DNA of 40,118 nt from a virus. Lineage: Duplodnaviria > Caudoviricetes. The DNA is taken from IMG/VR virus record IMGVR_UViG_3300046779_000390, positions 1 to 40,118 of that record. One strand, given 5' to 3'. The notes under the pieces were generated by a model. That model saw nothing but the letters and a program-made list of their open reading frames with translations, was not told the origin of the DNA and did not search any database. Position numbers and translations under genes: made by a program. Below, in pieces: positions 16,891 to 27,908 of the stretch (within the stretch, counting starts at the first letter, position 1; each line of letters opens with the position of its first letter).

Positions 16891-17023
16891 ACTTATGTTG
16901 TGCGACTATCTCCCCTCCCAAATCACGGGGGCAATATAAGTTACTTAAATCTAAATCGGGTAACTTATCGGGGAAGTTGGCAGACTATATAAATATATAT
17001 GGCATCAACCCGATAACCGATAA

Positions 17024-17179: not shown

Positions 17180-17219
17180 TCATCTTGTAAGTACAACTCA
17201 ACAGCGAACAGGAGAAAAA

Positions 17220-17417: not shown

Positions 17418-17440
17418 ATCACAGCCCCGCATCCTTGACA
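17408..17440 (+). promoter_or_regulatory. CRP/GlxR-type site 3 plus TTGACA
   Basis: AGTGA-gttaaa-TCACA at 17408-17423, TTGACA at 17435-17440; -10 unclear. Confidence 0.55.
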
Positions 17441-17473
17441 GGAGGGCACAGCGAGCGAGACGCTAGTGGGGCA
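17424..17473 (+). ncRNA. 50-nt tRNA-like element (acceptor stem plus T-arm)
   Basis: GCCCCGC/GUGGGGC 7-bp stem, discriminator A, T-arm CAGCG-AGCGAGA-CGCUA, one small internal hairpin; no anticodon arm. Confidence 0.45.
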
Positions 17474-18110: not shown

Positions 18111-18140
18111 TAAACCAACCAACTACAGGAGGAATACATT

Positions 18141-21602: not shown

Positions 21603-21769
21603 TGCCTAAGTATGATTATAAGTGTGATACCTGCGGTGGTACACAAGAGATTGATAGAAGTTTTGGTGACAACACTGAACCTATCTGTTGCCAAGCAACA
21701 ATGAGTAGGGTATGGTCAGCACCAGCGGTCAAGTTTAATGGCTCTGGTTTCTATAGCACAGGAGGATAG
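21602..21769 (+). CDS. FmdB-family zinc-ribbon regulator (not in ORF track)
   Basis: MPKYDYKCDTCG...CC...MSRVWSAPAVKFNGSGFYSTGG, the typical FmdB signature. Confidence 0.88.
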   Translation: MPKYDYKCDTCGGTQEIDRSFGDNTEPICCQATMSRVWSAPAVKFNGSGFYSTGG

Positions 21770-24685: not shown

Positions 24686-24914
24686 TGATATTTATTCCCT
24701 CCTGTTGCGCGATTATTTGTAGGCTGTTGCCCTGAACGCCACAGGCAAAGCATATAAAGATATTCTTATCGAGGTTGGCACTACCTGATTGGTGCGTATC
24801 TGAATGGAACGGACACTTAAGGTTGACCTGCCCGTGCCCTTGTCTAAGGTTCGCACCATAATGGCGGAGGACATCTGCAATGTTCGGCAAGTCATTATCT
24901 ATCCTTGTCACCAT
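24534..24914 (-). CDS. DNA primase CHC2 zinc-binding part
   Basis: CPFH...CFACG; overlaps the TOPRIM ORF by 152 bp. Confidence 0.88.
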   Translation of the reverse strand: MVTRIDNDLPNIADVLRHYGANLRQGHGQVNLKCPFHSDTHQSGSANLDKNIFICFACGVQGNSLQIIAQQEGININEARTFAEGITGQSHQEVRGKYSSGIRLPSKQRNQSGSSTSGIIRRSLGT

Positions 24915-26251: not shown

Positions 26252-26272
26252 TGACTTCTCCTGTCATTAAAG

Positions 26273-26319
26273 TTAGAAGTAGGGCAATCACCTTCCCCGT
26301 CTGACTACCCTACTTCTAA
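26273..26319 (-). promoter_or_regulatory. 18-bp stem-loop upstream of helicase
   Basis: TTAGAAGTAGGGTAGTCA-GACGGGGAAGG-TGATTGCCCTACTTCTAA with G-U pairs on the minus strand. Confidence 0.7.
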
Positions 26320-26764: not shown

Positions 26765-27376
26765 TTATTTATCCTTCTTTGCGAATTGGCAGTGCTCTAT
26801 GAGTCCACAGAAACTGCACGATTGTAGGTTCGGTAGAAATATACCAGCCTTGCGTGCTTTGTCAAAGCCATCAACAAAGTATTCAAGTGTGTCTAGCGTA
26901 TATCTACTTAGGTCAATCATTTCTCCTGTCCCCGATTCACGAGACATCCAGTAGTTTCCTAGATTGACTGGAACTCCTATCATCTGTTCGACTCCTACTT
27001 TGTAGAAGCCTAACTGAAGGTCGGAGGTAGGGCGTGTACGTGAAGTCTTAAGGTCGACAATCACAAGTTGTCCGTTAACCTCAAAGATTCTGTCAATAAA
27101 CATCTTCACTGGCACACCTGCGATGACTGGATTCAACTCCAACTCGATGGCACGTACACCTTGCGGAGTTGTCCAAATTTTCCAGTCAGGGTTGTTCTGT
27201 CTCCACTTGATGTAGTTGTCTACCCAAACGGAGCCATTGATATTCCACCAATTGCCATCCTCTTTGTTAGGATTTTCTTTAGTGGCTCGACCTGCACGAC
27301 GTGCAGTCTCAAGATTTAGTCCTTCAGTTTCCTTGCGCCAGGCTTTCGCCCACAGTTCATTCGTTGTCGTAATCAT
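26765..27376 (-). CDS. Cas4/RecB-like exonuclease, C-terminal part
   Basis: IE...IDRI...IVDLKT, QLGFY and CSFCGLIEHC motifs; ATG 27376 with GGAG upstream. Confidence 0.85.
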   Translation of the reverse strand: MITTTNELWAKAWRKETEGLNLETARRAGRATKENPNKEDGNWWNINGSVWVDNYIKWRQNNPDWKIWTTPQGVRAIELELNPVIAGVPVKMFIDRIFEVNGQLVIVDLKTSRTRPTSDLQLGFYKVGVEQMIGVPVNLGNYWMSRESGTGEMIDLSRYTLDTLEYFVDGFDKARKAGIFLPNLQSCSFCGLIEHCQFAKKDK

Positions 27377-27545
27377 ACAACTCCGTTGCATAGTGGAAAG
27401 CACGTCCTCCTGCTGACCAGATGGATGGTTCCTCTGGAACCTGAAGTAGTCGACCTAGGTAGTACTGATAACCACAGGTCAGATATGTTGTGAACGCTGA
27501 GTAACTGATGTGCTCAGGTAAAGTATAATCGTCTAACTTAATCAT
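27357..27545 (-). CDS. Cas4/RecB-like exonuclease, N-terminal part
   Basis: HISYS...TCGYQYYL...GRAFH; ATG 27545. Confidence 0.8.
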   Translation of the reverse strand: MIKLDDYTLPEHISYSAFTTYLTCGYQYYLGRLLQVPEEPSIWSAGGRAFHYATELYDYDNE

Positions 27546-27687
27546 CGAGGAAGTCCACGAGATAGTCAACCTCTTCACGTAGTTCTCGAACTGTTTCCTC
27601 TAGGTCGTGCAATGCAAAGGTCAGTTCAGATAGTAGCCAAGCGATATCGTCGTGTTCTTCTTCGTGCTTCTTAAATGGATTCCACAT
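27538..27687 (-). CDS. 49-aa acidic coiled-coil protein (not in ORF track)
   Basis: MWNPFKKHEEEHDDIAWLLSELTFALHDLEETVRELREEVDYLVDFLDD; GACAGGAG site. Confidence 0.75.
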   Translation of the reverse strand: MWNPFKKHEEEHDDIAWLLSELTFALHDLEETVRELREEVDYLVDFLDD

Positions 27688-27708
27688 AATTGCTCCTGTC
27701 GTAGTTGT

Positions 27709-27762
27709 TTAGATAGACCCCCTGAGAGGACAGGAGGTGACTCAATCAGGGGACCTATCTAA
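27709..27762 (-). promoter_or_regulatory. Leader hairpin with anti-Shine-Dalgarno loop
   Basis: 17-bp stem plus GAG/CUC closing the loop UCACCUCCUGUC, complementary to GACAGGAG at 27700-27693. Confidence 0.65.
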
Positions 27763-27780: not shown

Positions 27781-27860
27781 TATTAATATATAATATATAT
27801 ATTATATAGGCGCCTTAGCGCCTTATATAGTATTTATTATTTATTAATAATTTAATTATA
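27781..27860. repeat. Extremely AT-rich palindromic tract
   Basis: 22-bp perfect palindrome TATATAATATATATATTATATA at 27787-27808 followed by AGGCGC-CTTA-GCGCCT. Confidence 0.8.
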
Positions 27861-27885
27861 CACATACCCTGACCTGACTTGTCAA
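27855..27885 (-). promoter_or_regulatory. Promoter for the replication operon
   Basis: TTGACA (27885-27880)-N19-TATAAT (27860-27855); spacer is long. Confidence 0.6.
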
Positions 27886-27908
27886 GTCTCGACACGCCGT
27901 GCTACACT
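27879..27908 (+). promoter_or_regulatory. Divergent promoter with GACAC box
   Basis: TTGTCA-N18-TACACT with extended -10 TG; GACAC at 27891-27895 in the spacer. Confidence 0.6.

What the first reader, a model, noticed from the sequence alone, without database searches (positions are those of the whole stretch)
27687..27762. Leader hairpin displaying an anti-Shine-Dalgarno loop that mimics the 16S rRNA 3' end
Seen: a long stem exposes UCACCUCCUGUC. Its CUCCUGUC pairs with the GACAGGAG ribosome-binding site 8 nt past the stem (pseudoknot), and the same GACAGGAG precedes the helicase gene (26265-26258). Known: UCACCUCCU is the 16S anti-SD sequence. Inference: a cis translational lock on the replication operon, or, if the hairpin is excised, a trans-acting SD-binding RNA affecting phage or host mRNAs.
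Basis: partly seen in the sequence, partly recalled or inferred. Interest (0 to 1): 0.7.

Follow-up and report, generated by a model that had tools for sequence, protein, structure and literature searches.

The report
Phage hairpin reads early-gene start tag
A conserved hairpin in freshwater actinobacterial phages carries a loop that is the exact complement of an eight-letter tag placed at the ribosome-binding sites of early and replication genes but almost never late genes, so one RNA likely switches down that whole gene class, and it may explain similar unexplained tags in mycobacterial phages.

Summary
The hairpin is real (minus strand, 27762-27709; z -3.85). It is present in 64 of 64 protein-fetched relatives of one clade and in 0 of 44 more distant ones; 15 of 21 stem pairs show two-sided compensation. 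Only CUCCUGUC of the loop is invariant. It differs from the actinobacterial 16S tail by one base (U to G), and early/replication ribosome-binding sites carry the matching change: GACAGGAG, 28 of 81 such starts against 1 of 82 late starts. The pseudoknot with the neighbouring site is possible but dispensable: a distant phage lineage has the same loop behind its early operon with no adjacent site and 7-9 tagged early genes. Some cluster K mycobacteriophages have a like hairpin whose loop matches their start-associated sequence (7 of 14 examined exact, 1 partial, 6 none). Most likely a multi-target antisense brake on early translation; pairing, processing and direction are untested, and no loop-target two-sided change exists within the clade. 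Two cultured Planktophila phages carry it. Earlier unchecked notes of this scan report like elements on other phage DNA.

The parts
27709..27762 (-). H1 hairpin: 17 bp + UU bulge + 3 bp stem
27729..27740 (-). H1 loop UCACCUCCUGUC; invariant seed CUCCUGUC at 27736-27729, abutting the 3' arm
   Evidence: invariant in 76 of 76 copies; costs 1.3 kcal/mol to free
27693..27700 (-). GACAGGAG ribosome-binding site of the first gene of the replication operon (predicted target; possible cis pseudoknot)
27538..27687 (-). 49-aa ORF, no PHROG match; absent in many relatives, where H1 and GACAGGAG lie directly before the exonuclease N-part
27848..27898 (-). Likely promoter of the H1 transcript: GGCGTGTC box (27898-27891), TTGACA (27885-27880), TATAAT (27860-27855; 19-nt spacer, so not flagged by the scanner)
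   Evidence: sequence, recurrence in relatives; start site inferred; one search did not list it
26923..26932 (-). GGGACAGGAG inside the exonuclease C-part; candidate coding-region target (10 bp possible)
   Evidence: third positions 99% and 98% fixed, rank 4 and 5 of 48 four-fold columns, median 72%; free in hairpin-less relatives
26275..26317 (-). H2 hairpin after the 145-aa gene, loop with conserved GGGGAWG; function unknown
   Evidence: 90 of 92 H1-clade loci; 11 of 11 consensus pairs with two-sided changes
26258..26265 (-). GACAGGAG ribosome-binding site of the helicase gene (predicted target)
24699..24705 (-). ACAGGAG (7 of 8) before the primase gene
17208..17214 (+). ACAGGAG (7 of 8) before the first early ORF (17220)
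18125..18131 (+). ACAGGAG (7 of 8) before early ORF 18141
21758..21764 (+). ACAGGAG (7 of 8) before early ORF 21771

Best explanation
A conserved 54-nt hairpin displays an invariant eight-base loop that is complementary to a phage-specific ribosome-binding tag (GACAGGAG) on early and replication genes, and it likely acts as one antisense RNA that pairs with these tags and damps translation of that gene class while late genes escape. Shown: the hairpin, its strand, the invariant loop, the tag's distribution, the one-base departure from the 16S tail matched by the tag, and relocation of the hairpin without an adjacent site in another lineage. Inferred: the RNA is made from the promoter at about 27848; it persists as leader or as a trimmed stable fragment (AU-rich flanks, strong stem); its loop binds tagged mRNAs at about -12.5 kcal/mol against about -7.8 for the 16S tail, occluding the 30S subunit; as it accumulates it helps the early-to-late switch, with feedback on its own operon (first gene, helicase, primase). 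Pairing with the neighbouring site in cis may be one case of the same interaction.
For: Stem covariation and invariant loop. Hairpin and tag occur together: 64 of 64 against 0 of 44 protein-fetched loci; exact GACAGGAG 3-16 copies in 11 hairpin-bearing genomes, 0-2 in 5 without, reversed control 0-2. Fully pairable sites at 33 of 81 early/replication starts, 2 of 82 late starts, 6 of 35 in hairpin-less genomes. Position 3 of GA-x-RGGRG is C or U in 61 of 61 starts (pairs with loop G, not with 16S U) against 5 of 9 in hairpin-less genomes; 16S tail CCUUUCU in all 150 listed actinobacterial matches. At positions 1-4 of the two operon sites at least 19 independent changes keep pairing, 1 breaks it. 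Distant lineage (helicase 48-50% identical): same loop behind whiB, no adjacent site, 7-9 tagged early genes in 4 long loci. Blind scan ranks H1 first by start-proximal complements in 9 of 11 genomes. Cluster K parallel with A-U in place of G-C at the same position, lying where late transcription starts (PMC11373665 section 19).
Against: No expression or binding data: RNA contigs of 4 runs did not cover H1. No two-sided loop-target change within the clade. The hairpin-bearing phages form one clade (76 tips, support 0.82), so the presence test is about one event plus the distant lineage. A-to-G changes at positions 4 and 7 are also tolerated by the 16S tail. The window itself has only 2 perfect start sites; its early sites are 7 of 8, one late-cassette gene (29255) also has 7 of 8, and ACAGGAG is only modestly enriched (13 against 6.65 expected). 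3 of 23 early starts in hairpin-less genomes have the exact tag. 6 of 14 SAS-bearing cluster K phages lack a matching coding-strand loop and the cluster EF phage has no reversed exact copy, so such tags can persist without the RNA. The CUUAA often preceding the tag is not explained by the loop.
Confidence: 0.6

Rival explanations
1. Cis-only translational lock: an H-type pseudoknot with the neighbouring RBS controls the first gene of the replication operon.
For: Seed abuts the 3' arm as in H-type knots; the neighbouring site stays pairable in 62 of 76 copies; fraying 2-3 base pairs costs only 1.5-2.9 kcal/mol; stem and linker lengths correlate (rho 0.49, non-independent rows).
Against: Does not explain the tag on many distant early genes, nor the lineage with no adjacent site; four copies have 21-bp stems with 4-5-nt linkers; 13 of 76 neighbouring sites are weakened to -8.2 kcal/mol.
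Confidence: 0.1
2. Sensor model: the strained cis pairing keeps the replication operon off until tagged early mRNAs capture the loop in trans and free the RBS, so the tag is a key rather than a target.
For: Same complementarity data; strained geometry makes the cis pairing displaceable.
Against: The relocated hairpin has no downstream gene to unlock; the cluster K hairpins have no adjacent start-associated sequence.
Confidence: 0.1
3. The tag is a site for a phage protein (RNA repressor, RegB-like nuclease or DNA-binding regulator) and the hairpin is a processing, stability or termination element whose loop carries a reversed copy for another reason.
For: CUUAA prefix and the internal coding site about 60 nt upstream of an internal promoter are not needed for RNA pairing; SAS persist in cluster K phages without the loop; the relocated copy sits where a terminator is expected.
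Against: A reversed copy placed exactly in an exposed loop, three times in different places and with a matching base change in cluster K, is not expected of a protein site; tag variants are nearly all G-U compatible.
Confidence: 0.13
4. The RNA pairs with tagged mRNAs but its effect is on stability or is positive (protection, guided cleavage, ribosome hand-over), not ribosome occlusion.
For: A constrained site inside the exonuclease coding region, where no ribosome starts.
Against: Nearly all other sites overlap the Shine-Dalgarno core; known unpaired C-rich seeds block initiation (PMC2790875 abstract).
Confidence: 0.07

Closest known systems
Start-associated sequences (SAS) of cluster K mycobacteriophages (PMC3203893, passages read; PMC11373665 passages and section 19; PMC12699233 passages) and cluster EF Microbacterium phages (PMC7302621, passages)
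   Same: Over-conserved motif at the RBS of non-structural genes, one orientation, extending beyond 16S pairing; role stated as unknown in 2011, 2024 and 2025. The single reversed copy noted in 2011 lies in a hairpin loop.
   Different: Different motif (GACAGGAG against GGGATAGGAGCCC), 8 against 13 nt, no ESAS inverted repeats tested here, unrelated phage genomes; a partner RNA is not described in the passages read.
RsaE-type sRNAs with unpaired C-rich seeds (PMC2790875, abstract)
   Same: Exposed pyrimidine-rich seed predicted to pair with RBSs of several mRNAs, without Hfq-type extended pairing.
   Different: Host RNA with a generic UCCC seed; here a phage leader or 3' hairpin whose seed differs from 16S by one base and whose targets carry the matching base; no sequence similarity (no Rfam match).
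T4 RegB (PMC9409239, passages)
   Same: Inactivates early phage mRNAs through their Shine-Dalgarno motif to ease the early-to-late transition.
Leader pseudoknots that control translation (T4 gene 32, IncI/IncB rep leaders; recalled, not looked up)
   Same: Hairpin loop pairing with a nearby leader sequence.
   Different: Stem here is 20 bp with a 4-10-nt linker, and the loop has many distant complements.

Membership tests
Trans-acting SD-blocking sRNA (RsaE-like mode) | Conserved unpaired seed complementary to RBSs of several mRNAs | tested here: met
Trans-acting SD-blocking sRNA (RsaE-like mode) | Exists as a discrete, stable transcript | tested here: inconclusive
   no RNA contig covered H1 in 4 runs; contigs cannot show ends
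Trans-acting SD-blocking sRNA (RsaE-like mode) | Blocks 30S binding on targets | not testable with these tools
   needs toeprinting or reporters
Any Rfam family (incl. RsaE) | Covariance-model match | tested here: not met
   no match at or near H1 or the cluster K hairpins
GUCCY-hairpin motif | GUC and CY flank a short stem from outside | tested here: not met
   supplement alignment of PMC2864571; here GUCC lies at the loop/stem junction
Start-associated sequence (SAS) | Repeated asymmetric motif 3-9 nt before starts of non-structural genes, beyond 16S pairing | tested here: met
Start-associated sequence (SAS) | Cluster K consensus GGGATAGGAGCCC | tested here: not met
   tag is GACAGGAG
Start-associated sequence (SAS) | Associated ESAS inverted repeats | not tested
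   not searched
H-type pseudoknot | Two-sided covariation of the loop helix | tested here: not met
   0 of 8 pairs; loop invariant, so the test has little power
H-type pseudoknot | Linker long enough to span the first stem | tested here: inconclusive
   needs 2-3 frayed pairs in the window by a rough length estimate; 4-5-nt linkers with 21 bp occur
Altered host anti-SD (tag simply optimal for the host ribosome) | Host 16S ends in CCUGUC | tested here: not met
   no Nanopelagicales among 31 genome matches; CCUUUCU in all 150 listed actinobacterial matches; the strain LanE-43 16S itself was not read

The most novel reading that the evidence does not exclude
Actinophages have repeatedly built a private translation-control code: early genes carry a Shine-Dalgarno sequence changed at one base, and a single phage hairpin RNA carrying the matching one-base variant of the 16S tail out-competes the ribosome on exactly those mRNAs. 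This would be an RNA-only counterpart of T4 RegB, give the missing reader of mycobacteriophage start-associated sequences in part of cluster K, and supply a natural orthogonal SD/anti-SD switch.
Probability: 0.45. Interest if true: 0.9.

Novelty: new variant of a known kind. Interest (0 to 1): 0.78.

Why it matters
How phages without RegA/RegB-type proteins silence early mRNAs is largely open, and the role of start-associated sequences has been called unknown from 2011 to 2025 (PMC3203893, PMC11373665, PMC12699233). This gives a named RNA, a named base pair and a list of targets. It can be tested in cultured systems: Planktophila phages E7 and F5 (PMC10202952) carry the hairpin and 9 and 8 tagged genes, and K1 phages grow on M. 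smegmatis. A 54-nt hairpin that selects mRNAs by one SD base would also be a useful synthetic part.

Tried and rejected
Rfam: no match. GUCCY-hairpin: different layout. RNA evidence: best holders had small shares; contigs of 4 runs covered neighbouring genes of relatives but not H1, which shows nothing either way. Host 16S ending in CCUGUC: not found in Nanopelagicales. Primase recognition site (5'-GTC, recalled from T7): does not explain the position at gene starts; dropped without a direct test. H1-H2 kissing: 7 bp possible in the window but the bases vary without compensation in relatives. A cognate hairpin with another loop in the five hairpin-less genomes: blind scan best score 1-3 sites. 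The same blind scan missed H1 in G005, ranked it low in the fragment G015, and did not rank the Angelica or Kratio hairpins on top, so it is insensitive. Cluster EF phage AnnaSerena: 11 forward, 0 reversed exact GGAAAGGA; loose scan of parts found none. L085/L086/L105/L106/L110 matched the pattern but L085 and L110, the two inspected, are unrelated divergent RBS pairs. Most motif hits were chance and were dropped when they neither folded nor lay beside the exonuclease. Fremin 2023 supplements: no hit in 6 files, but files 1, 2 and 4 were not searched. The last preprint search was uninformative.

Full report
Setting. The window is a whole virus record of 40,118 bases with terminase, portal, capsid, endolysin, WhiB, sigma factor, DnaB-like helicase, primase and a split exonuclease. 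Its nearest named relatives are records LanE43-AprE7 and -AprF5 (exonuclease 82%, helicase 87% identical), the cultured Planktophila phages of PMC10202952 (first part of the text read). The host is therefore likely a freshwater actinobacterium. 'Early', 'replication' and 'late' below are inferred from gene layout, not from transcript data.

Observation. The isolated hairpin beats 200 of 200 shuffles (z -3.85); longer windows do not stand out. Rfam has no match.

Conservation. Among loci fetched by protein similarity with enough upstream DNA, H1 is in 64 of 64 distinct loci at 66% or more exonuclease identity and in 0 of 44 below. On an exonuclease tree the 76 H1 tips form one clade (support 0.82) without any of the 41 others. 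In 76 distinct copies (the set includes motif-fetched loci, positive by construction) 98.5% of stem cells pair, 15 of 21 pairs change on both sides, no shuffle of 500 reaches this and slid controls give 41-50%. G-U cells outnumber A-C cells 139 to 2, which fixes the strand. H1 stays when the small first ORF is lost and when the upstream AT-rich module is replaced.

The loop. CUCCUGUC and the next two bases are invariant in 76 of 76; the four bases before vary. The actinobacterial 16S tail read CCUCCUUUCU in all 150 listed matches from 177 of 301 sampled genomes (56 further matches not listed; three unpublished genomes, G139, G020 and G067, are among them and the claim does not depend on them). 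A tail ending CCUGU gave 31 genome matches, 11 in 16S context, none titled Nanopelagicales. So the seed is the 16S tail with one U changed to G. The tag GACAGGAG is the ideal site GAAAGGAG with the matching A changed to C. Computed duplexes: seed with tag -12.5, 16S tail with tag -7.8, seed with a late-type UAAGGAG -6.4 kcal/mol.

The tag is genome-wide. Exact GACAGGAG occurs 9, 7, 8, 8, 16, 9, 10, 15, 9 and 3 times (the last a 68% fragment) in ten H1 genomes and 5 times in the window, against 2, 2, 1, 1, 0 in five genomes without H1; each H1 count includes the loop itself. With a mechanical start caller on 8 H1 genomes (G013-G015 left out as fragments or duplicated assembly), fully pairable sites precede 33 of 81 early and replication starts and 2 of 82 late starts (p 4e-10; genomes not independent); exact tags 28 of 81 and 1 of 82. 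In the five others: 6 of 35 pairable, 3 exact. Where a start has GA-x-RGGRG, x is C or U in 61 of 61 cases in H1 genomes and A, C, U, G 3, 3, 2, 1 times in the others. F5 has 10 copies against 1.15 expected: 6 early genes, 2 replication-operon starts, the coding site and the loop; E7 has 7 early and 2 replication starts by the same listing, and F5 8 in all. The window is a weak case: two perfect start sites, four 7-of-8 sites before early genes and primase, one before a lysis-cassette gene, and ACAGGAG 13 against 6.65 expected.

Pairing. At the neighbouring site 62 of 76 copies pair 8 of 8, 13 need a bulge and 1 mismatches; no pair changes on both sides because the loop never changes. At the site after H2, 87 of 90 are pairable and 3 read GACAGGAA. 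On the tree, positions 1-4 of the two sites show at least 19 changes that keep pairing and 1 that breaks it; A-to-G at position 4 also suits the 16S tail, so position 3 is the informative one. A site inside the exonuclease gene keeps GGG ACA GGR codons in 80 of 86 H1 loci and in 0 of 13 true outsiders (the fourteenth row there is an H1 locus), ranking 4th and 5th of 48 four-fold columns. It also lies about 60 nt before an internal promoter-like site, so a DNA role is possible.

Cis or trans. A cis knot needs an 8-nt linker to span 20 bp; by a rough length estimate 2-3 basal pairs must fray, costing 1.5-2.9 kcal/mol. It is not excluded. But eight viral contigs of a distant lineage (helicase 48-50%, exonuclease 37-43% identical) carry the same stem base and loop just behind whiB at the end of the early region, on the early strand, with no GACAGGAG after the stem; the four with long upstream DNA have 7, 8, 9 and 8 pairable early starts on that strand. 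These eight hairpins are nearly identical, so they count as one case. The constant feature is thus loop plus many tagged early genes, not loop plus neighbour.

Cluster K parallel. PMC3203893 (passages) describes GGGATAGGAGCCC before non-structural genes, says its reader may be RNA or protein, and notes one reversed copy in four K1 phages. In Angelica that copy is the loop CCUCCUAUCC of a 19-20-bp hairpin with a 5' bulge and short upper stem. In Adephagia it lies between genes 92 and 93, where late transcription appears to start (PMC11373665 section 19). The exact loop is in Angelica, Adephagia, Enkosi, Niklas, LastHope, Validus and, moved to the leader region before the small terminase gene, Kratio; Amohnition has a one-base-shorter loop. 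ZoeJ, Unicorn, Aminay, Marshawn, Pixie and Keshu have 14-25 tags and no such coding-strand loop; Pixie and Keshu have a minus-strand hairpin with loop ACCUAUCC; Boilgate has one tag and no hairpin. At the base where 16S has U, the freshwater pair is G-C and the cluster K pair A-U. Homology between the two is not shown, and the misses show the tag can persist without this RNA.

Mechanism. Most likely the hairpin, as leader or trimmed fragment, pairs through its loop with tagged RBSs and keeps the ribosome off, damping early and replication genes while late genes escape (0.6). Expression, processing, pairing and direction are all inferred. Rivals are listed with odds.

Novelty. The mode resembles RsaE-type seeds (PMC2790875, abstract) and the outcome resembles T4 RegB (PMC9409239, passages). 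Searches gave no paper describing this hairpin or an RNA partner for start-associated sequences; PMC11373665 and PMC12699233 (passages) still call their role unknown. PMC7302621 and PMC2864571 were seen as passages and a supplement hit; PMC10690425 only through a supplement search, where three files were not searched, so the motif may sit unnamed in that catalogue. The library lacks most subscription papers. Earlier notes of this scan, seen after the cluster K test, report like loops in other phage genomes; none matched this sequence. They are unchecked and not counted as support. Verdict: real, conserved element; new variant of a known kind; interest 0.78.

Noticed in passing
window 27545-27357 and 27376-26765 (-): The PD-(D/E)XK exonuclease is split into overlapping 62-aa and 203-aa ORFs in different frames; homologs are also about 200 aa and some relatives insert DNA between the parts. 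Natural split or frameshift not resolved.
   Followed up: partly
window 26317-26275 (-) and 16970-16976 (+): The GGGGAAG motif of the H2 loop recurs at the start of the early region on the early strand in most H1 genomes; possibly a second shared RNA or DNA site.
   Followed up: partly
window 26865-26838 (-): Promoter-like TTGACA-16-TATATT inside the exonuclease gene coincides with fixed synonymous codons; likely drives the downstream 145-aa gene.
   Followed up: partly
window 27898-27891 (-): GGCGTGTC recurs about 30 nt before the -10 box in many relatives; its reverse contains GACAC, recalled as a WhiA/WhiB site. Not tested.
   Followed up: no
window 27850-27781: Very AT-rich palindromic tract around GGCGC-NNN-GCGCC; hairpin-less relatives have a like tract around GACCCC-TTCG-GGGTC. 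Candidate origin.
   Followed up: no
L029, L060, L064, L071, L243, L253, L254 upstream of H1: The AT-rich tract is replaced by another conserved module with GGGGCGAAACCTC and GGGGGTAGGGGG motifs; possible structured RNA or tiny gene.
   Followed up: no
L257-L322 upstream of the exonuclease N-part: Many hairpin-less relatives place TATAAT 6-7 nt before the start codon, suggesting a leaderless mRNA where the H1 clade has a long leader.
   Followed up: no
L003, L004, L025, L026, L048, L064 and others, after H2: H2 plus its tag acts as an insertion point: an extra gene often lies between it and the helicase gene.
   Followed up: partly
Pixie 58825 and Keshu 58927 (-): Near-perfect 15-bp hairpin with loop ACCUAUCC, complementary to 7 nt of the SAS, on the strand opposite the genes.
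   Followed up: no
window 17435-17444 (+): TTGACAGGAGG with no start codon after it; probably a -35 box overlapping the tag.
   Followed up: no
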